From assembly GCF_009914755.1 (NCBI RefSeq), contig NC_060933.1: a stretch of DNA of 64,000 bases; one strand, given 5' to 3'. The DNA is from the human T2T-CHM13v2.0 reference genome, Homo sapiens. Made by a program: the position numbers and the translations under genes. How positions within the stretch are numbered: position 1 is the stretch's first letter; every line of letters starts with the position of its first letter. This document shows, piece by piece, positions 41,411-64,000 of this stretch. The notes beneath the pieces were generated by a model. It was not told where the DNA came from. It saw nothing but the letters and a program-made list of their open reading frames with translations, and made no database searches.

Positions 41411-41852
41411 TATAAATTATCAATAATTTATAAAACCCTTAGGAATAAGAATTACACTCTACGGGTATGCAAAAAAATGTAGGAAAATAGTTTTTGCATC
41501 ATAATTAATGATAGACAGAAGGGTAGATAGACACACACATTACACACACATATATATTTATATATATATATATTTGTAGTTAAAAGTATATGATGTTGGA
41601 GTTAGATAACACCTGTTAAGCCAAATATTAGCTGAAGGATCTTGCAATAGCTACTTACCATCTCTGAGATGTTTTTAAAAATTAATATACAAAATTAATA
41701 ATAATAATTATAGAGACATAAGATTGTTTTTATAGCTTTATTCTTTATTTTTTAAATAAGATATATATCATAAAATATACTACTTTAACCATTTTAAGTA
41801 TACAGTTCAGTGGCATTAAATACATCTACATTGTTGTACAATCATCACAACT

Positions 41853-42857
41853 AGTGAATTCTTATAATTTTATGTAGCCTCAGCCTCCATTTTGAGTATA
41901 AGCTTGACTTTTTATCACATCAGAAGCAGGGCTTTGTCACCGTTGACACAAGTCCCAATCTCTGCCTCCTCTAGTTCCTCAGGTGCTTGACCTGGAGATC
42001 TACTTTATGAATCTGTCTCCTGGTGACAACCTTCCTCCTTGTATCAAGCAGCTAGATGCAATCTAGTTGACTTGCTCTGCTGACCCCAGCACTCCACGTG
42101 GACGGCATAGATTTACAGCAGTGACCACCTTTCAGTCACTGTGTGACTATAGGAAACTCGTGCCTACTTTTTGTAAACCCACCGATTCCAACTGCCTGCA
42201 GAAAACCTGCTTGGGTAACTTTATTGGGACCCCAATAAAGACTTTGGCAAACAGGTCTCTCTCTCTCTGCCTCCCTCCCTCCCTCCCTCCCTCCCTCTCT
42301 CTCTCTCTCTCTGTCTCTCTCCGCCTCTCCCTCTCTCTCTCCCTCTCTCTCTCTCTCCCTCTTTCTCTCTCCCTCTCCCCACCCACTGATCACATATGCA
42401 AGTCCCAGATGCTTTCCCCCTTCCCATTGGCCCTGTGAGGCATGTTGCTCTCTTACCTCTGGGATCTGTAAGTGATACTCTGCTTCTGTTATCCCAAATG
42501 TTTTGTTTTGTTTTGTTTCATTTTATTTTGTTTGTTTTGTTGTCTCCGATGATACCCAAACCTAACTTCTGTTCTGATCAGCGTTCTCCTATACAGTGGC
42601 TGTCTTGGTAGGAATAAACTGGGCATAGGTCACACAAGAGCCACAAGGGTGTCTGTCAGTTTAAACAGGTTTCCTGTGAGAGGGACACATGATGACAGGT
42701 TGGACATGTAGGCATTGGGCCATTCACCATGATTAAAAAAAAAAAAAACTATCCCATGAAAGACAACCACACACCTGGAGTCCCATCAGGGCAGGGCTAG
42801 AGTTTATAGCCACTCTCTCTAGACAGACTTCAAGACCAAACTAGAGGAAAACCCAAC
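41853..42857 (+). mobile_element. MER54A-like ERVL solo LTR
   Basis: GTGAATTCTTATAATTTTATGT..CAGAAGCAGGGCT..GACCCCAATAAAG..CAAACTAGAGGAAAA. Confidence 0.8.
42256..42382. repeat. CT-rich polypyrimidine microsatellite
   Basis: (CT)n/(CCCT)n, about 125 bp. Confidence 0.95.
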
Positions 42858-43460
42858 CACCACCAAACATCTAGGGAAATTTTTTTCTTTTCCCAAACTT
42901 AAACTGTGTACCCATTAAACAATAATTCTCCACTTCCCCTTTCCTGTAGTCCCTGCCAACCACCATTCTCATCTCCATCTCCAAAAATCTGAGTACTCTA
43001 GGTACTTTATATAAGCAAAATCATATAGTATTTGTATTTTTGTAATTGACTTATTTCACTAAGCAAAAGTCCCTGGAGGTTCATTTATGTTGCAGCATAT
43101 GCCGGAATTTCTTTTCTTTTTAAGGCTGAACAATATTCCATTGTATTTATATATTGCATTTCATTTATCCATTCATCTGTTGATGGACACTAGAGTCAAT
43201 TTTACCATTGGCTCTTGTGAATAATGCTGCTATGAACTCAATTGTACAAATATCAGTGTGAGTCCCTGCTTTTAATTATTTTGGGTCTATATCCAGAAGT
43301 GGAATTACAGGGTTACAAAGTAATTCCATTTTTTTATTTTTGAGGACCCACTATCCTGTTTCTCATAGTGTCTGAACCATTTTCACATTCTCACCAACAG
43401 TGCACAAGGGTTTCAATTTATCCATATCCCCAACCAACACTTATTATTTCCAATTCTTTT

Positions 43461-50110
<6,650 letters not shown>

Positions 50111-50233
50111 CAGTTTCCCTTTGATCACTGCCTTTAAGAAAAGCTCTTCCTACCTGTCAATAATAATCTCAGCTAATAACTCTAAACTTACAAATATAGT
50201 AATATATCAACTATGAAATTAAAAAAGACACAC

Positions 50234-50682
50234 TGGGGTAGGCCAACTTATGCTCCCCACAAAGATGTCCACATCCTAATCTTCAGAATCTGTGAATATG
50301 TTATTTTCCATAGCAAAAGGGACTTTGCGGATGTGCTTAAATTAAGGATCCTGAAATGCAGAGATAATTTATTCTGGATTATGTGTGTGTGCTCAATGTA
50401 ATCTCAAGGGTCTTTATAAGAGGGAGGCAGCAGCATCACAGGCGGCATAGGTGTTGTGACAATGAAAGCAGAAATTGGAGGGATGCCGTCAAAAGCCAAG
50501 GTTGTTGTCTGCCTTGAGAAGCTGAAAATGCAAGGAAAAGAACCAGATTTATTGACACTGTTTTTAACCCCATGAGATTCCTTTTAGACTTATAAACTCT
50601 AGAACCGAAAGAAAATAAATTTTTGTTGTTTTTTTCACTACATTTGTGGTAATTTGTTACACCAGAAATAGAAAACAACCTG
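50234..50682 (+). mobile_element. MLT1D LTR
   Basis: AAAGATGTCCACATCCTAATC..TGTGAATATGTTA..AAAAGGGACTTTGC..TTTGTGGTAATTTGTTACA. Confidence 0.85.
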
Positions 50683-51999
50683 TCTTTCAGCACCCATATA
50701 TCCAAAGCCAAGGTCCATATACTCACCCTTATATATTCAGTGTGGTCAGGGGAGTAATACAGCCCCTTGCTAGTTTGAATCATGTACCTTCATTTGTAAT
50801 GTACAGAAGGTGAATTGGAGATAGACAACACACAGCAGCCCCTAAGAAGTGGTTGTTCATTGGATTCGACATTGAATTACTCATAAAAAAGTGACAAATA
50901 GGATTTCAAAATATATAAAAACAACAGGCATCTACTACTTTCCACACATTGTTTGCATAGAATGCACATTCACCTACCTTCTCTTATATACAGTTGAAAA
51001 ATATTATCACATAATGCAGTGCAACTATTTCTTAAGAAGCTAAAATGTACACAACTCTTCACCAGAATAGACAGTCTCTTTTAGTTGCTGCTTCTAGTCT
51101 CAAATCTAATATCCCTGGGTGATTTACATTTCTCTTGGCCAGAAATGAAGTTGAAATTTCATCACCCCAAATAAGTAATTTAACTCTCAACAACAAAAGA
51201 AAATATAAAATATTAGAAGAAAATTAAAAAAAATAAAAATTTCCCTAATAAAAAAACGAGAAAAGAAACAACCTGTTATGTAGAGCAATTCATATTGCAT
51301 GTGAATTGACATGTGCCCTCACTTGACAGTGAGGGCAAAGGCTCTGAGTTTTGACAGCGAAGTGAGCTCCTTTTGCCCACCCAATCTGCCCTGCATTCTG
51401 TTGCTGCTTGGATGTGTGCTCATTACTGATACACATAGAGGGGTTTATAAAGTGACTACGTTAATTAGGCAGTCTAGTTTTTATTTTAGTCTGGTAGGAC
51501 ACAGATTCTGAAATTGACTTAAAGATTGAACAATTGTAAATTTTGACTGGCTTAAAAATTGAAAATTATAATTTCTATTTTAAAATATTTCAAAACCTAA
51601 ATATATTTTAAAGAGAGGTTGGCTGCCAGTCTATTTGAATTCCGAAAATTGCATTAGGTTATCAAATTACAATGACAGAAATATTATGCAGTTATATTCT
51701 TGGATTGAGTTTTTTTTTTTTTTTTTTTAAAAAAAAGGTCTTTGCAATCCAAGAAATTACATGAGTTTCTGACTCTTAACCATCTTGAATTGTTGGCTAC
51801 AGGCAGAAAGACACTGTTAGGAAGGTTGAATCTTCTTTTAACGATCAAGTGGGCTTTGGTCTGTATCTTGGAAGTAATCCCAGAAGACTTCCTATCCAAT
51901 TTTCTGTATCAAATTTCTTGAAGTTCTCATGTTATTATACAATGGTCTTAGTCCTAAAACACAGTAAGTGACAGTTTAACCAATTTCTTTATTGACATT

Positions 52000-53200
52000 A
52001 AAAGCAGTTACTGACTTATCAGTTAAAGATGCAGGATTCTTCAATGTTTCTCATGATGCATAATGTTTTTTTATAGAAACTCTATCAGATTGAGGAAGTT
52101 TTCTTTCATTCCTAGTATGCTGCTAGTTTTTATCATAAATGGGCATTGGAGTTTCAAAAATTTTTTTGTTGACATATAATCATATAATTTCTCACCTTTA
52201 TTAGTAAGATCAAATTACACTGGTAAATTTTTAAACGTAAAAATGAACCTCGAATTCCCAGGACAAACCCTATGTGGACTTTATGTATTATCCTTTTAAA
52301 CAATGCTGGAGTCAAAGTACTCATACAAGTTACTAACACTTTGTTTCATATATATATGAACATATATATGCTAAGTATACATATGGTAATTAAATTCAAA
52401 TGAGGTCATATAGTTGGGGTCCTAATCCAAGAGGATTGGTGGCCTCACAAAAAGAGAAAGAAAGAGAGATCTTGGTCTTTCTACAACACACACAGAAGGG
52501 GCATGAGAGCACACAGTCTACAAGCCAAGAAAAGTAGCCTCAGAATAAAACCCACCTTGCCAGGACCTTGATCTTGGACTTGCCAGTGGTTAGAACCGTG
52601 TGAAGTAAATTTCTGTTATTGAAGTAACCCACTCTATGGTATGTTATTATGACACGTCGAGTAAACTAATACAGTCAGAAAACATACTCCATATAATTTC
52701 AATTCCTTAAATGGATTGAAACTTATGACTCAGTCTAAAGTTTATCTTGGTGAACATACCATACATACTTGAAAATAATGTGATTCTATAGTTATTCCAT
52801 GTAGGGGTCTGTAGATGCCAATTAAGTCAAGGTGGCTTATATTGTTGTTTATGTCATCCAACCTTACTGATATCTTTCATGTCTACTTGTTTTCCTAATT
52901 ACTGAGTGTGGATTGTTAAAAAATATCCTTCCATTTCCTCCTTTAATTCTGTCAAATTTGCTTCATCCATTTTGAAGTTCTATAAATTAGATTCATACAC
53001 ATTTAGCAGTGTTATATCATTTTGATATATTGATGCCCTTATCGTTATGAAATGCCCTTTATTCAATAGTAATTCTCTTTGTCTTTATTGTCAATATCAT
53101 AAGATATAACTTTTTCCAAGTGAATTTCCAATTGATTGAGCACCATTTATTGAAAAAGCCATTCTTTCCCCATTGCATTATGATTTGAAAAAGCCAAAAA
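52000..53200 (-). mobile_element. Old L1M ORF2 fragments
   Basis: ATCAGATTGAGGAAGTT..TTCCTAGT; TTGAGCACCATTTATTGAAAA. Confidence 0.6.
52384..52672 (+). mobile_element. MLT1A-like LTR (3' part)
   Basis: AAATGAGGTCATA..CCTTGATCTTGGACTT..CTATGGTAT..AACTAATACA. Confidence 0.7.
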
Positions 53201-53399
53201 TCCTTTAATAAGAAGTATCCCTGTGGTCAAAATACACTTTGCAGGATTATCTATATTAGAAATCAAATTTTGTGGGAGTAGATGTGACCTGGCTAACGAT
53301 ATAGTCAAATAAGAAAAACATCATCATAATTAGAGCCAATTTTTATTGAGCTTTTAAATAGGCTAATGTCATCCATGAATCATTTTTATATTATTTATT

Positions 53400-54280
53400 T
53401 ATTTTTTTATTTTTTTCTGTTTTATTATAAATTGGCAAATGATAATTGTGTATATTTAGGGATTATAAAATGTTATATGTATACAATGTGAAATGGTTAA
53501 ATCAATCTAATTAACATATCAATCACCTTAAATATTTGTCATTTTTTGCAATGAGAACATTTGAAATATACTTTCTTAGCAATTTTGAAATATACAATAT
53601 ATTAACTGTAGTCAATATGCTGTGTCATAGATCTTAAAAGACATATTTCTTATGTCTAACTGAAACTTTGACCAACACATCCCCACTCCCCACAACCCTC
53701 CATCTCTGACAAACATCATTCTTCTCTGTGATTCTCAGTCCAATTGTTGTAGGTACCACATATAAGCAAGATCATGCAGTCATTTGTTCTGACTTATGTT
53801 ACTTAGCATAATGTCCTCCAGATTCATCCATATTGTCAGAAATGATGGAATTTCAGTTTTTAAGGCCGAATAATATTCTATTGTGTATATATGCTATTTT
53901 TACTTTGTTCATTTGTTGATTAACACTTAGGCTGTTTTCATGTTTTAGCTATTGTGAATAATGCTGCAAAGAACACAGAAGTGTAGACATTTCTTTGACA
54001 TACTGATTTAAAATCCTTTGGCTATATATCCAGAAGTGGGACTGCTGGATCATATGGTAACTCAATTTTTAGTTTTTAAAGAAACCTCCATACTGTTTCC
54101 TAAAGTGGCTGTACAAATTTACATTCCTACTAATGATGTACAAGGGTTCCTTTATCTTTACATTGTCACCAACACTTGTTACCTTCTGTCATTTTCAATA
54201 ACAGCCATTCTGACAGGTATGAGATGATATCTTATTGTGGTTTTAATTTGCATTTCCTTAATGATTAGTTATGTTAACAT
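53400..54280 (-). mobile_element. L1MA (MA9/10-like) 3' end
   Basis: AATGAGAACATTTGAAATATACTTTCTTAGCAATTTTGAAATATACAATA..CCAGAAGTGGGACTGCTGGATCATATGG. Confidence 0.8.
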
Positions 54281-54289
54281 ATATAAAAT

Positions 54290-55000
54290 TTTAAATAAAC
54301 ACTTTATTATAGACTACCTATAGGTTTACAGAAGAGTCATAAAGTAGTGAAGAGTCCCCATATCCACCACAGCCAGTATCCTCTATTATTACCTTACATT
54401 AGTATAGTATATTTGTTGCAATTAATGAACCAATATTAAGATGTTATTATTTACTAAAGTCCATATTTTATTCAGATTTCCTCAGTTTTTACCTAATATT
54501 CTCTTTTTCATTATTGCTACAGGTCTTTTCCAGTATAATACATTGCAGTTGGTTGTCACGTCTCTTCACACTACCCTTGGCAGTGATGGTTTCTCAGAGT
54601 TTCCTTCTCTTTAATGACTTTCACAATTATGAGGGGTACTGGCAAGGTGTTTTATAGAATGGCCCTCAGTTGAAATTTTTCGGATGTTTGTCTCATGATT
54701 AGATTAGGATTATGGGTTTTGGGGGGAGGAACATGGAAGCACCATTTTCAGCACATCATTTCAAGGATATATGCTATCAGCATGACTTATCACTGTTGAT
54801 GCTAACCTTGAGCACCTGCATGAGACAGTGTCTGTCAGATTTCAATACAAATACTACTGCCTCCCCTTTTCTATACTGTATTCTTTGGAAGGAACACACT
54901 ATGCCACCTCACACTTAAATGGTGGGGAGTTATGCTCCCCTTTTTGAAAGGGATGTACCTATGTATAATGTGTGGAATTGTTATGCATAAGGTATCTGTA
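54290..55000 (-). mobile_element. L1MC-type 3'UTR
   Basis: TTTGTTGCAATTAATGAACCAATATT..CTAAAGTCCATATTTTATTCAGATTTCCTCAGTTTTTACC. Confidence 0.65.
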
Positions 55001-55059
55001 TATTTTTGCTTGGCATAATTTATTTTCAATCCTCAGAAAAATCATATTTTGTCCTCAAA

Positions 55060-56113
55060 AAATAAAATTCTTGGAAATAAACTTAATCAAGGAGGCGAAA
55101 GCCTTGCACTCTTAAGACTACAAACCGTTTTTGAAAGAAATTAAAAAGGACATCATGAAGTGAAAAGATATCCTGTGTTCATGGATTGGAAGACAATTAA
55201 GATATAAATACTACACAAAGTAATGCAGATTCAATTCAATTCCTATCAAAGTCCCAATGACATTTTTTGCAAAAATAGAAAATCCATCCTAGCACTGATG
55301 TGGAGTCTAAAGGGATTCCAAATGACCAAAATAATCTTCAAAAAAAGAGCAACTCAAAACTTACTACAAAACTGCAGTAATCAAAACAGTGTGGTACCAC
55401 CATAAAGATAAAGATATATATCAATAGAATAGAATAAAGATGCCAGAAATAAACCCTCACATACGTGGCCAAGTGATTTTAGAGAAGGATGCCAAGACCA
55501 TTCAATGGGAAAAGAACAGTCTTTTCAACAAATTGTGTTGAGAAGGGTGGATATTTGCATGCAGAAGAATGAAGTTGGGCCCTTACCTTACACCATATAT
55601 GCAGAATCACTCAAAATTTATCAAAGACCTAAATGTAAAACCTAAAACTATAAAACTTTTAGAAGAAAACATAGAGAAGAAGCTTCAAGACACTAAATTT
55701 AGAAATGATTTCTTGGCTATGACCAAAGGAAAAAAAAAAAAAAAAAAAAAAGCACAGGCAACAAAAGTAAAAATAGACAAAATTGACTGCATTAAAAAAA
55801 AAAAAAAACTTTGAACGTCAAAAGACACTATCAACAGAGTTAAAAGGCAACCCATAGAATAGGCTGCAAATTATATATCTCGTAAGGAGCTAATATTCAG
55901 AATAAACAAAAATTCCTTCAAATCATCATCAAGAAAAATCAAACAACCCAATTAAAAATGGACAAAGAAATTGAATAGACATTTCTCCAGAGAAGATGTA
56001 TAGATGGCCAATAAGCATACAAAAGAAATGCTGAACATCATAAAATAATTAGGGAAATGCAAATTAAGCTTACAATGAGACACAACTTTATACCCATTAG
56101 GATGGCTATTACT
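55060..56113 (+). mobile_element. L1MB-type ORF2 segment (5' half of the element at 41745-43444)
   Basis: ORF2 relic (MKLGPYLTPY..) ending at CCCATTAGGATGGCTATTACT, the point where the minus-strand L1MB half begins. Confidence 0.85.
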
Positions 56114-59100
56114 AAAAGATTTGGAAATAGGATTTTCAGGGAGGGGCCAAGATGGCTGATTAGAAGCAGCTACAGCCCATGGCACGCATGGAGAGGAAGA
56201 AAACCAGCAAGGGAATTCAGTACCTTAAACTGAAATGTCCAGGTTGTTGCATTAGGACTGACTAGGCAAATAACTCATGGAGAATAAAGAAAAGCATAGC
56301 GGGGCAATGACCCACCCAGGAGTGGCACACAGCCAAAGGAACCCACAAACACAGCTGAGAGAAGCACTTTCACTCATGATACCATCAGATGCAGGAGGGA
56401 CCAAGTTGACTAGGGTCTGGAGTGTACCTTAAGCAAACCACAGCCCTTTGGAAAAGTGGCTTGCTAGTGAAAAGAAAAACAAACAAAAATAACAATGACA
56501 ACATAAACAAACAAAAAAAGACCCCACAAAAACCCCATTCAAAGGTCAGCAACCTCAAAGATTGAAGGTAGATAAGCCCACAAACATGAGACGTAATCAA
56601 CACAAAAATGCTAAAAACTCAAAAAGAGAGTGCCTCTTCTCCTTCAAATGATGGCAACACCTCTGCAGCAACGGCATGGAACCGGACTGAGGCTGAGATG
56701 GCTGAACTGATAGAAATAAGCTTTAGAAGGTGGGTAATAATGAACTTTGCTTAAAGGAGTATGGTGTAACCCAATGCAAATAAGCTAAGAATCATAATAG
56801 AACAATACAGAAGTGTTAGCCAGAACAGCCCATTTAGAGAGGAACATAGCTAACCTGATGGAGCTGAAAATACAACACAAAAACTTCACAATGCAATTAT
56901 AAGTATCAGTAGCAGAATAGACCAAGCAGAGGAAAGAATCTCAGAGCTTGAAGACTATATTCCTGAAACAACACATGCAGACAAGACTAGAGGAAAAAAG
57001 AATGAAAAAAAATAAACAAAACCTCCAAGAAATATGAGATTATTTACAGAGACTGAAACTATGACTGATTGATATACCTGAAAGAGATGAGGAGAATGGA
57101 ACCAAGTCAGAAAACATATTTCAGGATATCAGCCAGGAGAACTTCCCCAACATAGCAAGACATGCCGGCATTAACATTCAGGAAATGCAGGGAACCCAAT
57201 TAAGTTACTCCACAAGAATGTCAACCCCAAGACAAAAAATTATTAAATTCTCCAGGGTAAAAATAAAAGAAAAAATGTTGAGAGCAGACAGAGAGAAAGG
57301 CTAGGTAACCCAGAAAGAAAAGCCCATCAGACCAACAGCAGACCTCTCCGTGGAAACCCTACAAGCCAGAAGAGATTGGGGGCCATATTCAACATTCTAA
57401 AAGAAAAGAATTTCCAACCCAGAATTTAATATCTGGCCAAACTAAGCTTCATAAGCAAAGGAGAAATAAGATCCTCTTAAGACAAGCAAATGCTGAGGGA
57501 ATTTATCACCAATGGCCTGCCTTGAAAGAGCTCCTGAAGGAAGCACTAAATATAGAAAGAAAAAAAAAAAGTTACCAGCTACTACAAAACACACTGAAGT
57601 ACATAGACCAGTGACATTACGAAGGAACCACCTGAACAAGTCTGCCAAATAACAAGCTAGCATCATGATGACAGGATCAAATTTACACATAACAATACTA
57701 ACTTTAAATATAAATTGGCTAAATGCCCAAATTAATAGACACAGAATGGCAACCTGGATAAAGAGCCAAGACCAAATGGTATGCTGTCTTCAGGAGACCC
57801 ATCTCACTTGCAAAGACATACGTATGCTTGGGATAGAGGGATGGAGGAAAATATACCAAGCAAATGGAAAACAGAAAAAAGCAGGGGTTGCAATCCTAGT
57901 TTCTGACAAAACAGTCTTTAAACCAACAAAGAACAAAAAAAGACAAAGAAGGGCATTACATAATGGTAAAGGGTTCAATTCAAGAAGAAGAGCTAACTAT
58001 CCTAAATATATATGCACCCTATACAGGAGCATCCAGATTTATAAAGCAAGTTCTTAGAGACCAATAAAGAGACTTAGACTACCACACAATAATAGTGGGA
58101 GACCTTAACAGCACACTGACAATACTAGATCATCAAGACAGAAAATTAGCAAAGATATTCAGGACTTGAACTTGGCTCTGGATAACAGGACTTGACAGAT
58201 ATCTACAGAACTCTCCACCAAAATTCAAGAGAATATACATTATTCTCAGTGCCATATGGCAGTTAATCTAAAATTGACCACTTAATAAGAAATAAAACAC
58301 TCTTCAGCAAATGCAAAAGAACTAGAATGATAATAGTCTGTCAGACTACAGCACAATCAAATTAGAATTCAAGATTAAGAAATTCATTCAAAATCACACA
58401 ACTACATGAAAATTGAACAATGTGCTCCTGAATGACTCTTGGGTAAATAATGAAATTAAGGCAGGAATTGAGATGTTCATTGAAAGTAATGAGAACAAAG
58501 GAACAATGTACCAGAATCTTTGGGATGCAGCTAATTAGTATTAAGAGGGAAATTTATAGCACTAAATGTCCACATCAAAAAGCTAGAAAGATCTCAAGTT
58601 AACAATCTAACATCTCAACTGAAAGAACTAGAGAACCAAGAGAAAAAAAAAAAAACTCAAAGGCAGCAGAAGACAAGAAGTAATCAAGATCTGGGCTGAA
58701 CTGAAGGAGTTAGAGACACAAAAAAGACCTTCAAAAGATCAATTAATTCAGGAGCTGTTTTTCTGAAAAAAATTAATAGGATAAATCACTAGCTAGACTG
58801 ATTAAAAAAAGAGAAAAGAATCATAAAAACACAATCAGAAGTGATGATGGGAATATCACCATGGACCCCACAGAAATGCAAACGTCAGAGAATACTATAA
58901 ATGCCATTATGCACATAAACTAGAAAATCTAGAAGAAATGGATCAATTCCTGGATGCATACACCCTTCCAAGAGTGAACCAGGAAAAAATTGAATCCCTG
59001 AATAGACCAATAAAGAGTTCTGAAATAGAGGCAGTAATGAATAGCCTACCAACATAAAAAACGCCAGGACCAAATGGATTCACACCTGAATTCTACCAGA

Positions 59101-60500
59101 GGTACAAAGAAGAGCTGACGCCATTTCTACTGAAACTTTTCCAAAAAACTGAAAAGGAGGGACTCCTCCCCAACACATTCTATGAGTTCAGCATCATCCT
59201 GACACCAAAACCCAGAAGAAATACAACAAAACAAGAAAACTTCAGGCTAATATCCATGATGAACATTGATGAAAAAATCCTCAGTAAAATACTAGCAAAC
59301 TGAATCCAACAGCACATCAAAAAGCTTATCCAACATGATCAAGTTGGCTTCATCCCCAGGATGCCAGGTTGGTTCAACATACACAAACCAATAAATGTGG
59401 TTTCATCACATAAACAGAACTAAAGACAAAAACCACATGATTATATCAATTGATGCAGGAAAGACCATCAATAAAATGCAACATCACTTCATGTTAAAAA
59501 ACTCTCAATAAACTAGATATGGAAGGAACATAACTCAAAATAACAAGAGTCACATATGACAGACCCATAGCTAATATCATACTGAATGAGCAAAAGCTGG
59601 AAACATTCCCCTTGAAAACCAGCACAAGACAAGGATGCCCTTTCTCACCACTCCTATTCAACATAGTATTGGAATTTCTGGCCAGGACTATCAGGCAAGA
59701 GAAAGAAATAAAGGGTATTTAAATAGGAACCAAGGAAGTCAAATTATCTTTGTTTGCAGATGACCTGATCCTCTATCTAGAAAACCCCATCGTCTCAGTT
59801 CAAAAGCTTCTTAAGCTGATAAGAAACTTCAGCAAAATCTCTGGATACAAAATCAATGTGCAAAAATACCTAGCATCCCTATACACCAACAATAGACAAG
59901 CAGAGAGTCCCATGAATGAACTTATATTCAAAATTGCTACAAAAAGCATAAAATACCTTGAAATAAAGCTAACAAGGGAAGTGAAGGACCTCTTCAAAGG
60001 TACTACAAACCAGTCCTCAACTCAGAAAAGACAGAAACAAATGAAGAAACATTCCATGCTTATGGATAGGAAGAATCAGCATCATGAAAATGGCCATACT
60101 GCCCAAAATAATTAATAGGTTCAATGCTATTTCTATTAAACTACCATTAACGTTCTTCAAAGAATTAGAAAAAAAAATTAAAATTTATATGGAACCAAAA
60201 ATGTGTCTGAATAGCCAAGACAATCCTAAGCAAAAAGAACAAAGCTGGAGGCATCATGCTACCCAACTTCAAACTATACTACAAGGCTATAGTAACCAAA
60301 ACAGCATGGTACTGATAGTAGAACAGACACATAGACCAAATGAAACAGAATAGAGAACTCAGAAATAAGACTGCACACCTACAATCATCTGATCTTTGAC
60401 AATTGACAAAAATTAGCAATGGGGAAGGGACTTTGTATTTAATAAATAATGCTAGGAATGCTGGCTAGCCATAAGCAGAAAATTGAAACTGGACCTTTTC

Positions 60501-63385
60501 TGTATTAGTTTGTTTTTGTGCTGCTGATAAAGACATAACTGAAACTGAGAAGAAAAAGAGGTTTAATTGGACTTACACTTCCACATGGATGGGGAGGCCT
60601 AAGAATCATGGCAAGAGGTGAAAGGCACTTCTTACATGGCAGCAGCAAGAGAAAATGAGGAAGATGCAAAAGCAGAAACCCCTTATAAACCCATCAGATC
60701 TCATGAGACTTATTCACTAACATGAGAATAAAGACAGGCCTCCATGATTCAATGACCTTCCCCTGGGTTCCTTCCACAATACGTGGGAATTCTGGGTGAT
60801 ACAATTCAAGTTGAGATTTGAGTGGGGACACAGCCAAACCATATCATTCCACCCCAGGCCCCTCCAAATCTTATGTCCTCACATTTCAAACCAATCATGC
60901 CTTCGCAACAGTCCCCCAAAGTCTCAACTCATTTCAGCATTAACCCAAAAGTCCACAGTCTAAAGTCTTATCTGAGACAAGGCAAGTTCCTTCCACCTAT
61001 GAGCCTGCAAAATCAAAAGAGAGCTAGTTACTTCCTAGATACAATGAGGGTACAGGTATTGGGTAAATATAGCCATTTCAAATGGGAGAAATTGGCCAAA
61101 CCAAAGGGGTTACAGGGCCTATGCAAGTCTGAAATCCAGCAGGGCAGTCACATTTTAAAGCTCCAAAATGATTTCCTTTGACTCCATGTCTCACATCCAG
61201 GTTATGCTGATGCAAGAAGTGGGTTCCCATGGTCTTGGGTAGCTCCACCCCTGTGGCTTTGCAGGGTTCAGCCTTCCTCCTGGCTACTTTCATGGACTGG
61301 CATCGAGTGTCTGTAGCTTTTCCAGGTGCACGGTGCAAGCTGTTGGTGGATCCGCCCTTCTGGGGTCTGGAGGATGGTGGCCCTCTTCTCACAGCTCCAC
61401 TAGGCAGTGCTCCAGTAGGGACTCTGTGTGGCAGCTCCAACCACACATTTTCCTTCTGCATGGCCCTACCAGTGGTTCTCCATGAGGGCCCCATCCTTGC
61501 AACAAACTTTGGGTGGGCATCCAGGAGTTTCCATATATCTTCTGAAATCTAGGCAGAGGTTCCCAAACCCCAATTCTTGACTACTGGGCAACCACAGGCT
61601 CAACACCACATGGAAGCTGCCAATGCTTGGGGCTTCCACCGTCTGAAGCCACAGCCTGAGCTCTATGTTGGCCTCTTTCAGCCACAGCTGGAGTGGCTGG
61701 GACACAGGACACCAAGTCCCTAGGCTGCATACAGCATGGGGACCCTGGGCCCAGCCCACCAGACCACTTTTTCTTTCTGTGCCTCTGGGCCTGTGATGGG
61801 AGAGGCTGCCGTGAAGGTCTCTGACATGGCCTGGAGATATTTTCCTCATGGTCTTGGGGATTAACATTAGGCTCCTTGCCACTTATGCAAACTTCTGCAG
61901 CCAGCTTGAATTTCTCCTCAAAAAAAAAAAGTTTTTTTCTTTTCTATTGCATCATCAGGCTGCAAATGTTCTGAACTTTTATCCTCTGTTTCCCTTTTAA
62001 AATGGAATGCTTTTAATAGCACCCAAGTCACCTTTTGAATGCTTTGCTGCTTAGAAATTTCTTCCATACCAGGTACCCCAAATCATCTCAAGTTCAAAGT
62101 TCCACAAATCTCTAGGGCAGGGGCAAAGTGCTGCCAGTCTCTTTGCTAAAATATAACAAGAGTCACCTTTACTCCAGGTCCCAACAAATTCTTCATCTCC
62201 ATCTGAGATCACCTTGGCCTGGACCTTATTGTTCATATCACTATCAGCATTTTTGTCAAAGCCATTCAACAAGTCTCTAGGAGGTTCCAAACTTTCCGAC
62301 ATTTTCCTGTCTTCTTCTGAGTCCTCCAAACTGTTCCAACCTCTGTCTGTTACCCAGTTCCAAAGTCATGTCCACATTTTCATGTATCTTTTCAGCAACA
62401 CCCCACTCTACTGGTACCAATTTACTGTATTAGTTCTTTTCACGCTGCTGATAAAGACATACCCGAGACTGGGAAGAAAAAAATGTTTCATTGGACTTAC
62501 AGTTCCACATGGCTGGAGAGGCCTTAGAATCATGGTGGGAGGTGAAAGGCACTTCTTTCATGGTGGCAGCAAGAGAAAAATGAGGAAGAATCCCTGAATA
62601 GACCAATAACAGGTTCTAAAATTGAGGCAATAATTAATAGCCTACCAATCAAAAAAGTCGCAGACCAGACGGATTCACAGTTGAATTCTGCCAGAGGTAC
62701 AAAGAGGAGCTGGTACCATTCCTTCTGAAACTGTTCCAATCAATAGAAAAAGAGGGAATCCTCCCTAACTCATTTTATGAGGCCAGCATCATCCTGATAC
62801 CAAAGCCTGGCAGAGACACAACAAAAAAAGATAATCTTAGACCAATATCCCTGATGAACATCGATGCAAAAATCCTCAAGTCTCTAGGAGGTTCCAAACT
62901 TTCCAACATGTTCCTGTCTTCTTCTGAGCCCTTCAAACTGTTCCAACCTCTGCCTGTTATCCAGTTCCAAAGTCATATCCACATTTTCAGGAATCTTTTC
63001 AGCAACACCCCACTCTGCTGGTACCAATGTACTGTATTAGTTCATTTTCATGCTGCTGATAAAGACATACCCGAGACTGGGAAGAAAAAAAGGTTTAATT
63101 GGACGTACAGTTCCACATGGCTAGAGAGGCCTTAGAATCATGGCGGGAGGCAAAAGGCACTTCTTACATGGCCACAGCAAGAGAAAATGAGCAAGATGCA
63201 AAAGCAGAAACCCCTGATAAACCCCTCAGATTTCATGAGACTTATTCACTAGCATGAGAATAGCATGGGAAAGACCAGCACCCATGATTTTATTACCTTC
63301 CCTTGGGTCTCTTGCACAACACGTGTGAATTCTGGGAGATACAATTCAAGTTGAGATTTTGGTGGGGACACAGCCAACCATATCA
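60501..63385 (-). mobile_element. THE1A MaLR provirus: LTR 60501-60846, internal region, partial LTR 62426-62589, LTR 63033-63385
   Basis: THE1A-type LTR (AAGAAAAAGAGGTTTAATTGGAC, GAGGAAGATGCAAAAGC) and THE1 internal sequence; the host L1 is contiguous across it (flanks TTTTC/CCTTC). Confidence 0.93.
62588..62879 (+). mobile_element. Internal L1PA (PA5-7-like) ORF2 fragment, no tail
   Basis: GAATCCCTGAATAGACCAATAACAGG..GATGAACATCGATGCAAAAATCCTCAA. Confidence 0.92.
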
Positions 63386-64000
63386 CCTTCCTTACACCTT
63401 ATACAAAAATTAAGATGGATTAAAGACTTTAATGTTATACCCAAAACTATAAAAATTCTAGAAGAAAATCTAGGCAATATCATTCAGAACCTCAGCATGG
63501 GCAAAGATTTCATGAGTAAAAACACCAAGAGCAATTGCAACAAAAGCAAAAATTGAAAAATGGGATCTAATTAAACTAGAGATATTCTGCACAGCAAAAG
63601 ACACTATCATCAGAGTGAATAGGCAGCCTACACAATGGGAGAAAATTTGTGCAATCCATCTATCTATCCGACAAAGGTATAATATCCAGAGTCTACAAGG
63701 AACTTAAACAAATTTACAAGAAAAAACAAACAACCCCATTAAAAAGTGGGGAAAGACATGAGCTGAGTCTTCTCAAGACACATATGTGGCCAAAAAACAT
63801 GAAAAAGAAGTTTAACATCACTGATCATTAGACAAATGCAAATCAAAACCACAATGAGATAACATCTCACACCAGTCAGAATGGCTATATTTAAAAAGCC
63901 AAAATACAACATATGCTGGTGAGATTGCAGAGAAAATGGATGCTTTTACACTGTTGGTGGGAGTGTAAATTAGTCCAACCATTCTGGAAGACAGTGTGGT

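What the first reader, a model, noticed from the sequence alone, without database searches (positions are those of the whole stretch)
41745..64000. Cryptic inversion by recombination between two inverted L1s, shown by a swapped TSD and a broken L1MB
Seen in sequence: the 16-mer AAAAGATTTGGAAATA (56114-56129, + strand) sits just before the 5' end of the right L1. Its 15/16 partner AAAAGAATTGGAAATA (43445-43460, - strand) sits just after the tail of the LEFT L1. The sequences outside these 16-mers are two L1MB pieces in opposite orientation (55060-56113 +, 41745-43444 -). They join without a gap into one L1 ORF2 sequence: GGATGGCTATTACT-AAAAGA(A/T)TTGGAAATA-ATAAGTGTTGG. Established: a TSD flanks both ends of one insertion in direct orientation, and recombination between inverted repeats inverts the intervening DNA and swaps 5' flanks. 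Inference: one L1 inserted in the L1MB and then recombined with an inverted neighbour. Both L1s are now chimeras, and at least the roughly 6 kb between them (50110-56130) is flipped. The two L1s are visibly diverged from each other, so the event is probably old.
Basis: partly seen in the sequence, partly recalled or inferred. Interest (0 to 1): 0.9.

Follow-up and report, generated by a model that had tools for sequence, protein, structure and literature searches.

The report
Ancient inversion between two inverted L1s
At least 6 kb of a gene-poor part of human chromosome 9 was flipped long ago, most likely by recombination between two oppositely oriented L1 retrotransposons; this is a well-known kind of event, so it is a clean but ordinary example.

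Summary
AAAAGATTTGGAAATA (56114-56129, +) abuts the 5' end of a full-length L1. Its 15/16 copy (43445-43460, -) abuts the A-tail of a second, inverted, full-length L1. The sequences outside the two 16-mers are two halves of one old L1M ORF2. They are in the same reading frame and overlap by exactly these 16 bases when aligned to five uninterrupted L1 copies and to three unrelated L1M copies. One L1 insertion has therefore had its two ends separated and turned against each other. The segment 50111-56129 at least is inverted.

The best mechanism is ectopic homologous recombination between two inverted L1s of the same family, now about 82% identical (retrotransposon recombination-mediated inversion, a described class).

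Not shown:
- Chimerism and the crossover point cannot be seen. Twenty related L1 copies show no subfamily structure, and both L1s carry equal mutation loads.
- Orientation in other primates could not be tested.

A retrotransposition-coupled reciprocal inversion remains a minor rival. No gene is annotated in the window. Interest is low to moderate: a new member of a known kind.

The parts
41745..43444 (-). 3' part of an old L1M-type element (ORF2 end, 3' UTR, own 3' end near 41745). About 1.1 kb (41852-42956) does not align to L1M references and includes a GA-rich simple repeat.
   Evidence: 43460-42957 aligns at 66-71% to three third-party L1M copies, and 41851-41769 at 75% to the 3' end of one of them.
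43445..43460 (-). TSD copy AAAAGAATTGGAAATA, directly after the A-tail of the left L1. It is also the first 16 bases of the L1M 3' part.
43461..50110 (-). Left L1: full length, dead (no long ORF). The 5' end is near 50110. The 3' end carries 30 non-family bases (43461-43490) that end in AATAAA plus an A run.
   Evidence: RVT_1 in 45797-46123 (-), E 1.8e-9.
48660..49019 (-). Alu inserted in the 5' UTR of the left L1.
   Evidence: matches to three other Alu-sized repeats in the window; sequence read.
50111..55049 (.). Intervening DNA that is inverted together with the L1M 5' part. The 125 bases next to the left L1 are single copy. It holds an unrelated L1M fragment at 53706-54277 (-).
55050..56113 (+). 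5' part of the same old L1M-type element (ORF2).
   Evidence: 72.7-73.3% to the same three third-party L1M copies; translation.
56114..56129 (+). TSD copy AAAAGATTTGGAAATA, directly before the right L1. It is also the last 16 bases of the L1M 5' part. The TACT|AAAA boundary fits an L1 endonuclease site (TTTT/A on the other strand; this motif is recalled, not tested).
56130..64000 (+). Right L1: full length, dead, runs off the window. The L1 body ends 564 bases beyond the window, followed by a purine-rich tract of about 125 bases. There are 9 non-family bases (56130-56138) before the family's 5' start. About 700 bases of the 5' UTR are missing relative to the left L1 and relatives.
   Evidence: Exo_endo_phos in 57653-58057, E 1.8e-5; RVT_1 in 59723-60115, below the curated cut-off.
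60497..63391 (+). Insertion of 2.9 kb inside the right L1, bounded by direct repeats of about 350 bases (60500-60846 and 63032-63385, 85.6% identical), LTR-like. It is not part of the inversion mechanism.

Best explanation
An L1 ('Y') inserted into an old L1M element and made the 16-base TSD AAAAGA(A/T)TTGGAAATA. A second full-length L1 of the same family ('X') lay about 5 kb away in the opposite orientation.

Ectopic homologous recombination between the two inverted L1s then flipped everything between the crossover points. Y's tail, one TSD copy and the L1M 3' half stayed where they were (now 41745-43460 plus the 3' part of the left L1). Y's 5' end, the other TSD copy and the L1M 5' half were turned round (now 55050-56129 plus the 5' part of the right L1).

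Shown: the split, inverted TSD and the split, inverted L1M; two full-length inverted L1s of one family. Inferred: that the exchange was homologous and lay inside the L1 bodies, so both L1s are chimeras, and that it happened early, while the L1s were still very similar. They are now about 82% identical, and each carries 6-7% private substitutions. At commonly used neutral rates (recalled) that suggests some tens of millions of years.

The inverted segment is at least 50111-56129 (6.0 kb). At most it spans both L1s (about 21 kb). No functional effect is evident.
For: - TSD pair at the exact L1 ends, on opposite strands.
- The two L1M halves overlap by exactly the 16-mer in alignment with 5 of 5 uninterrupted L1 copies. 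In one of 3 third-party L1M copies (L056) they align exactly contiguously; the other 2 show 13 and 33 extra bases.
- Same reading frame: RMAITKRFGN and KRIGNNKCW against [14 protein letters not shown].
- Neither L1 has the missing L1M half on its other side.
- The L1s are inverted and overlap over more than 5 kb of L1 coordinates: 81.7% over 4073 columns and 82.6% over 1195.
- Both have the family's 5' start and share 14 of the listed 5' UTR relatives.
- Equal private substitution loads, 318 and 356 of 5072 sites, fit two copies of similar age.
- Weak support for chimerism: the 9 extra bases at the right L1 5' end and the 30 extra bases at the left L1 3' end share GATTTTC. Chance is 0.7-1.3% and the finding is post hoc. 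This is expected if both came from one transcript carrying its source's TSD. The left 5' end and right 3' end lack it.
- The mechanism and TSD criterion are described in PMC2603318 (passages read). Polymorphic human inversions flanked by inverted L1 pairs have a median size of 5.6 kb, and 21 of 22 pairs are more than 90% identical (bioRxiv 10.1101/2021.12.20.472354, passages read).
Against: - The reciprocal TSD (left L1 5' flank against right L1 3' flank) was not found. The best local alignment scored 18, reached by 21.9% of 2000 shuffles and 16.2% of 2000 random genomic 46-mers. Nothing beat chance in 8.4 kb downstream.
- Both of these flanks are single copy, so no second broken repeat confirms the other junction.
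- No sign of chimerism or of a crossover. Private loads do not flip along the length. There is no subfamily structure among 20 relatives (9 discriminating sites against a mean of 6.2 in random splits).
- The one tract of higher left-right identity (z -2.96, simulated p 0.024) is matched or exceeded in 1 of 11 left-versus-relative controls, and 3 more are close.
- A 10-mer of the TSD (ATTGGAAATA) lies 690 bases past the window end, behind the right L1. There are 11 such chance sites in 73 kb, so about 3% for that flank, and no L1M follows it.
- No orthologous sequence was examined.
Confidence: 0.72

Rival explanations
1. Retrotransposition-coupled reciprocal inversion. Two L1 insertions took place at the same time at two breaks about 5-12 kb apart. 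Their cDNAs were joined in trans, so each L1 bridges one inversion junction, and the target-site duplication of one site is split between the two junctions. The L1s would then not be chimeras.
For: This gives the same architecture for the L1M site. Reciprocal inversions with L1 bridges and split target-site duplications ('heteroduplication') are reported in tumours (bioRxiv 10.1101/2024.08.27.596794, passages read). Both L1s belong to one family and have equal loads. The lack of a second TSD is easier to accept if the second break was not made by the endonuclease.
Against: It needs two full-length insertions at once within a few kb. The example bridge quoted in the passages read is built of 5'-truncated L1 pieces. 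The GATTTTC word is shared by the right 5' end and the left 3' end but not by the other two ends. This fits one transcript split between two L1s better than two whole transcripts. The left-right mismatch (0.150) is no lower than between any two relatives (0.156), so nothing points to a common source.
Confidence: 0.12
2. Non-homologous inversion. The two L1s once lay head to tail. One break fell exactly between the left tail and the right 5' end. The other was a 16-base staggered break in the L1M, and filling it in duplicated the 16-mer.
For: Topologically possible. The A/G-rich tract after the right L1 could be left over from an insertion into an older A-tail.
Against: It needs a break exactly at an L1/L1 junction. 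It also needs a staggered break that happens to look like an L1 endonuclease site and has typical TSD length. No TSD supports the tandem arrangement either.
Confidence: 0.04
3. No inversion. Two independent L1M fragments happen to end and begin at the same ORF2 position, and the 16-mer is shared through family homology.
For: The 16-mer lies in L1 ORF2 sequence, so any two L1M copies share some similarity there.
Against: The two copies match at 15 of 16 bases. The other L1 copies in the same columns differ much more, and whole L1M copies are only about 66-73% alike. The ends coincide to the base with an L1 tail and an L1 5' end. The missing halves are not on the far sides of the L1s.
Confidence: 0.02

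Closest known systems
L1 recombination-mediated inversion (RRMI / L1-RMI; Lee et al. 2008, PMC2603318, passages read)
   Same: Two inverted L1s span the breakpoints. The elements become chimeric and their TSDs no longer match. TSD analysis is used to tell the ancestral state.
   Different: Those 49 events are human- or chimpanzee-specific and were confirmed against orthologues; the L1s involved were described as young L1PA. Here the L1s are about 82% identical, the event is undated, only one of the two swapped TSD pairs is visible, and a broken older L1M stands in for the missing orthologue.
Polymorphic human inversions flanked by inverted L1 pairs (Porubsky et al., bioRxiv 10.1101/2021.12.20.472354, passages read)
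   Same: Inverted L1 pair; inverted segment of a few kb (median 5.6 kb there, at least 6.0 kb here); attributed to non-allelic homologous recombination.
   Different: There, 21 of 22 L1 pairs are more than 90% identical (median 97.2%) and the inversions segregate in people. This pair is far more diverged, so the event is probably old and fixed. That was not tested.
Reciprocal inversions bridged by synchronous L1 insertions in tumours (bioRxiv 10.1101/2024.08.27.596794, passages read)
   Same: L1 at both junctions, with a target-site duplication split between the two junctions.
   Different: Those are somatic and megabase-scale, and the example bridge read is built of truncated or twin-primed L1 pieces. 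This case is germline and fixed in the assembly, spans a few kb, and has two full-length L1s with normal 5' ends.
Twin-priming 5' inversion within a single L1 insertion
   Same: Inverted L1 sequence associated with one insertion and one TSD.
   Different: In twin priming the TSD copies stay in direct orientation and only L1 sequence is inverted. Here the TSD copies and the flanking L1M halves are inverted, 5 kb of non-L1 DNA lies between them, and both L1s are full length. A true twin-primed L1 lies just past the window end.

Membership tests
Retrotransposon recombination-mediated inversion (L1-RMI) | Two elements of the same family in inverted orientation at the two ends of the inverted segment | tested here: met
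   81.7% over 4073 columns and 82.6% over 1195 columns, inverted; both have the family's 5' start.
Retrotransposon recombination-mediated inversion (L1-RMI) | TSDs swapped: the TSD at the 5' end of one element matches the TSD at the 3' end of the other, in inverted orientation | tested here: met
   15 of 16 bases; the 16-mer is the overlap of two halves of one older L1M.
Retrotransposon recombination-mediated inversion (L1-RMI) | The reciprocal TSD pair is swapped in the same way | tested here: not met
   no match beyond chance; both flanks are single copy, so no other test is possible. A short or lost TSD is not excluded.
Retrotransposon recombination-mediated inversion (L1-RMI) | Both elements are chimeras of the two pre-recombination elements | tested here: inconclusive
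   20 relatives give no subfamily markers, loads are equal, and no distinctive tract appears; a shared 7-mer at the right 5' end and left 3' end is a weak hint (p about 0.01, post hoc).
Retrotransposon recombination-mediated inversion (L1-RMI) | Un-inverted state in an orthologous genome | not testable with these tools
   Only this one genome of the species was readable. No other primate or mammal sequence is held.
Full-length LINE-1 element (both copies) | Family 5' UTR start, endonuclease and reverse-transcriptase coding remnants, 3' end with A-rich tail | tested here: met
   (5' starts). RVT_1 and Exo_endo_phos fragments in 3 of 15 translated ORFs. (3' ends); no intact ORF, so both are dead.
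Twin-priming 5' inversion | TSD copies in direct orientation around one insertion whose 5' part alone is inverted | tested here: not met
   TSD copies on opposite strands; 5 kb of non-L1 DNA and the L1M flank are inverted too.

The most novel reading that the evidence does not exclude
The inversion was not a later recombination between resident repeats. It was made in one step in the germline by two simultaneous full-length L1 insertions whose cDNAs were joined in trans. That would make it an ancient, fixed, germline example of the L1-bridged reciprocal inversions so far reported only in tumour genomes.
Probability: 0.1. Interest if true: 0.55.

Novelty: new member of a known kind. Interest (0 to 1): 0.25.

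Why it matters
The case shows that a fixed, repeat-masked inversion can be read from a single genome. An older repeat broken by the insertion stands in for the missing orthologue. Once dated, the event would be a rare genomic change usable as a primate clade marker. It adds one instance to the count of L1-driven rearrangements. It lies in a stretch with no annotated gene in the window, and nothing suggests a functional consequence.

Tried and rejected
1. Reciprocal TSD. Nothing beat chance. A gapped AAAGG...AAGGGAA resemblance and a 10-mer TCAAAGGGAA about 810 bases past the window end were set aside. The first is purine-rich low complexity. The second lies inside a repeat family whose copies elsewhere cover it.
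2. Third TSD-like word ATTGGAAATA behind the right L1: judged chance.
3. Chimerism or crossover, using 20 full-length relatives fetched from the same genome. I tried private-load profiles, panel polymorphisms (mostly parallel CpG decay), a split by 5' UTR structure and a scan for a conversion tract. None was informative.
4. Shared derived sites. The left-right pair ranks 1 of 134 pairs (69 of 4957 sites, 1.39%, against a median of 0.48%). The alignment is anchored on the left L1, and the overall left-right mismatch equals that of the panel. I therefore draw nothing from this.
5. Source locus of the 30 extra bases at the left L1 tail. A 23-base pattern with up to 3 mismatches gave 21 other hits against 9 for the reversed control. 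None of the 20 fetched is preceded by an L1 3' end. One hit with the same matched string as another was not fetched.
6. Second broken repeat at the other junction: both flanks are single copy.
8. Not done: repeat-library naming (L1MB, L1PA subfamily), cross-species alignment, look-up in human inversion call sets. I made no search for this locus in print. The three literature searches were for the mechanism only.
Full report
**Observation**

The 16-mer AAAAGATTTGGAAATA is at 56114-56129 on the + strand. A 15/16 copy, AAAAGAATTGGAAATA, is at 43445-43460 on the - strand. These are the only two matches in the window at up to 2 mismatches. Shuffles give 0.31 on average, and 5 of 100 give 2 or more.

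The + copy is followed by GGATTTTCA and then the conserved 5' start of an L1. The - copy is preceded by ...CTGAATAAAAAAAA, the tail of another L1 read on the - strand.

**The two L1s**

A self-comparison shows two inverted L1 copies:
- 44692-48659 matches 60496-56471 at 81.7% over 4073 columns.
- 43508-44686 matches 64564-63392 at 82.6% over 1195 columns. Coordinates above 64000 continue the window into the adjoining DNA fetched.

The left L1 (43461 to about 50110, -) holds an Alu at about 48660-49019. The right L1 (56130 onward, +) holds a 2.9 kb LTR-like insertion at 60497-63391. It lacks about 700 bases of 5' UTR present in the left copy and in relatives.

Genome searches with both 5' ends found 39 other copies each, 14 of them in both lists.
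- For the right L1, 36 of 39 begin to align at window 56135 or later.
- For the left L1, all 39 begin at 50104-50088.
- An alignment with five relatives places both L1 starts about 8-12 bases before CCAAGATGG.

Both are thus full-length members of one family. One search lists no ORF longer than 164 aa (stop to stop) in 43461-64000. Pfam finds only RVT_1 and Exo_endo_phos fragments, in 3 of 15 translated ORFs, plus one spurious weak hit.

**The broken older element**

Measured against the L1 at 5454-9429, the + piece ends where the - piece begins. Window 56117 corresponds to 6181, and 43451 to 6175. Both 16-mers therefore map to 6169-6184.

In an alignment with five L1 copies that cross this point without interruption, the two pieces occupy the same 16 columns and nothing else in common. 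The five copies are the mid-region L1M fragment, the L1 at about 6.2 kb, the left L1, the right L1 and the L1 just past the window.

The frame is continuous:
- ...IREMQIKLTMRHNFIPIRMAITKRFGN (5' piece)
- KRIGNNKCWLGIWIN*... (3' piece)
- ...[36 protein letters not shown]... (intact L1 in the window)

Three L1M copies from other chromosomes align to both pieces: 72.7-73.3% for the 5' piece and 66.3-71.1% for the 3' piece. In one (L056) the two alignments are exactly contiguous. In the other two they are 13 and 33 bases further apart than expected. The - piece runs on to its own 3' end near 41745, with about 1.1 kb of other sequence inside it.

Neither L1 has the missing L1M half on its far side. 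A third L1M fragment at 53706-54277 crosses the junction region uninterrupted and is a separate element.

**What follows**

A TSD flanks one insertion in direct orientation. Here its two copies, and the two halves of the target, face each other across 12.7 kb. One copy sits at an L1 tail and the other at an L1 5' end.

The simplest history is an L1 (Y) inserted in the L1M, an inverted L1 (X) nearby, and an exchange between them that inverted the DNA between the crossover points. The inverted segment is at least 50111-56129 and at most about 21 kb.

The TACT|AAAA boundary and the 16-base length fit L1 endonuclease target sites. That motif is recalled, not tested.

I read 9 kb past the window end. 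The right L1 body ends 564 bases past the window. A purine-rich tract of about 125 bases follows, then about 65-115 bases of single-copy DNA, a 60-base piece of a common repeat, and a younger twin-primed L1.

The refuting outcome, its own 16-mer followed by L1M, is absent. The predicted reciprocal TSD is absent as well.
- The best local alignment between the left L1 5' flank and the right L1 3' flank scores 18. That score is reached by 21.9% of 2000 shuffles and 16.2% of 2000 random genomic 46-mers.
- No ungapped match in the next 8.4 kb beats random 71-mers.
- Both flanks are single copy in the genome, so no second broken repeat can confirm the other junction.
- A 10-mer of the TSD lies behind the right L1. 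Such 10-mers occur at 11 other places in 73 kb, and no L1M follows it.

**Chimerism**

I fetched 20 full-length relatives and projected them onto the left L1.

Over the 5072 classified sites, the left L1 has 318 private substitutions and the right L1 has 356. There are 81 shared derived sites. The ratio does not flip along the length.

The 228 sites polymorphic in the panel are mostly parallel CpG decay. Splitting the panel by 5' UTR structure gives 9 discriminating sites, against a mean of 6.2 and a maximum of 17 in 200 random splits.

The left-right mismatch (0.150) equals that of panel pairs (0.156). The most similar 1000-site tract has z -2.96 and a simulated p of 0.024. It is matched or exceeded in 1 of 11 left-versus-relative controls, and 3 more are close.

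The left-right pair has the most shared derived sites of 134 pairs. The alignment is anchored on the left L1, so I draw nothing from this. The crossover cannot be located with this genome alone.

There is one weak hint. The 9 non-family bases at the right L1 5' end and the 30 at the left L1 3' end share GATTTTC, at the inner edge of each. The chance is 0.7% against random genomic words and 1.3% against shuffles, and the finding is post hoc. This would follow if both were carried by one transcript from a source L1 flanked by that word. The source was not found: 0 of 20 fetched hits of 21 is next to an L1 3' end.

**Mechanism and rivals**

Recombination between inverted retrotransposons, with chimeric elements and mismatched TSDs, is a described class. 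Lee et al. 2008 report 49 such events between human and chimpanzee and use TSD analysis to find the ancestral state (PMC2603318, passages read).

Among polymorphic human inversions, 22 are flanked by inverted L1 pairs. Their median size is 5.6 kb, and 21 of 22 pairs are more than 90% identical (bioRxiv 10.1101/2021.12.20.472354, passages read). The present pair is only about 82% identical. This argues that the exchange took place soon after insertion. At 6-7% private substitutions per copy, and at commonly used neutral rates (recalled), that suggests some tens of millions of years. This is an estimate, not a dating.

The main rival is a one-step, retrotransposition-coupled reciprocal inversion, as reported in tumours (bioRxiv 10.1101/2024.08.27.596794, passages read). 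It gives the same picture at the L1M site and tolerates a missing second TSD. It needs two simultaneous full-length insertions, and it does not explain the GATTTTC hint.

A non-homologous inversion with a staggered break needs several coincidences. So does a reading with two independent L1M fragments.

**Verdict**

The homologous L1-L1 exchange is the most likely mechanism, but it is not proven. This is a new instance of a known kind of event, in a window with no annotated gene, so interest is low to moderate.

Noticed in passing
window 5454-9429 (-), and 816-3215 bases past the window end (+; L009:816-3215): A second, younger inverted L1 pair brackets the whole region about 55 kb apart, 93.8% identical over 850 columns. 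The downstream copy has its first 340 bases inverted (twin priming). No matching TSD was seen at its two ends when read by eye.
   Followed up: partly
window 62270-63196: Inside the LTR-like insertion in the right L1, a 290-base L1 fragment (62590-62876, 91% to the L1 at 7920-8221) is flanked by direct repeats of 320 bases that are 91.9% identical (62270-62589 and 62877-63196). This is an unusually long duplication around a short L1 piece.
   Followed up: no
window 56366-56409, against 49136-49880: The right L1 lacks about 700 bases of 5' UTR that the left L1 and all 39 listed relatives have. It is a private deletion.
   Followed up: partly
window 56130-56138 and 43461-43490: Non-family bases at the right L1 5' end (GGATTTTCA) and the left L1 3' end (GATTTTCTAC...AATAAA plus A run) share GATTTTC. 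This may be 5' and 3' transduction of a source element's TSD. The source was not found.
   Followed up: yes
689-699 bases past the window end (L009:689-699): GATTGGAAATA, resembling the last 11-12 bases of the TSD, lies behind the right L1 but is not followed by L1M. It is judged chance, about 3% for a flank of that size.
   Followed up: yes
window 42286-42400: A long GA/GGGA-rich simple repeat lies inside the 1.1 kb of non-L1M sequence that interrupts the L1M 3' part.
   Followed up: no
window 53706-54277 (-): An independent old L1M fragment covers the same ORF2 region as the broken one, 68.5% identical to the 3' piece. It could be mistaken for the missing half but crosses the junction uninterrupted.
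   Followed up: yes
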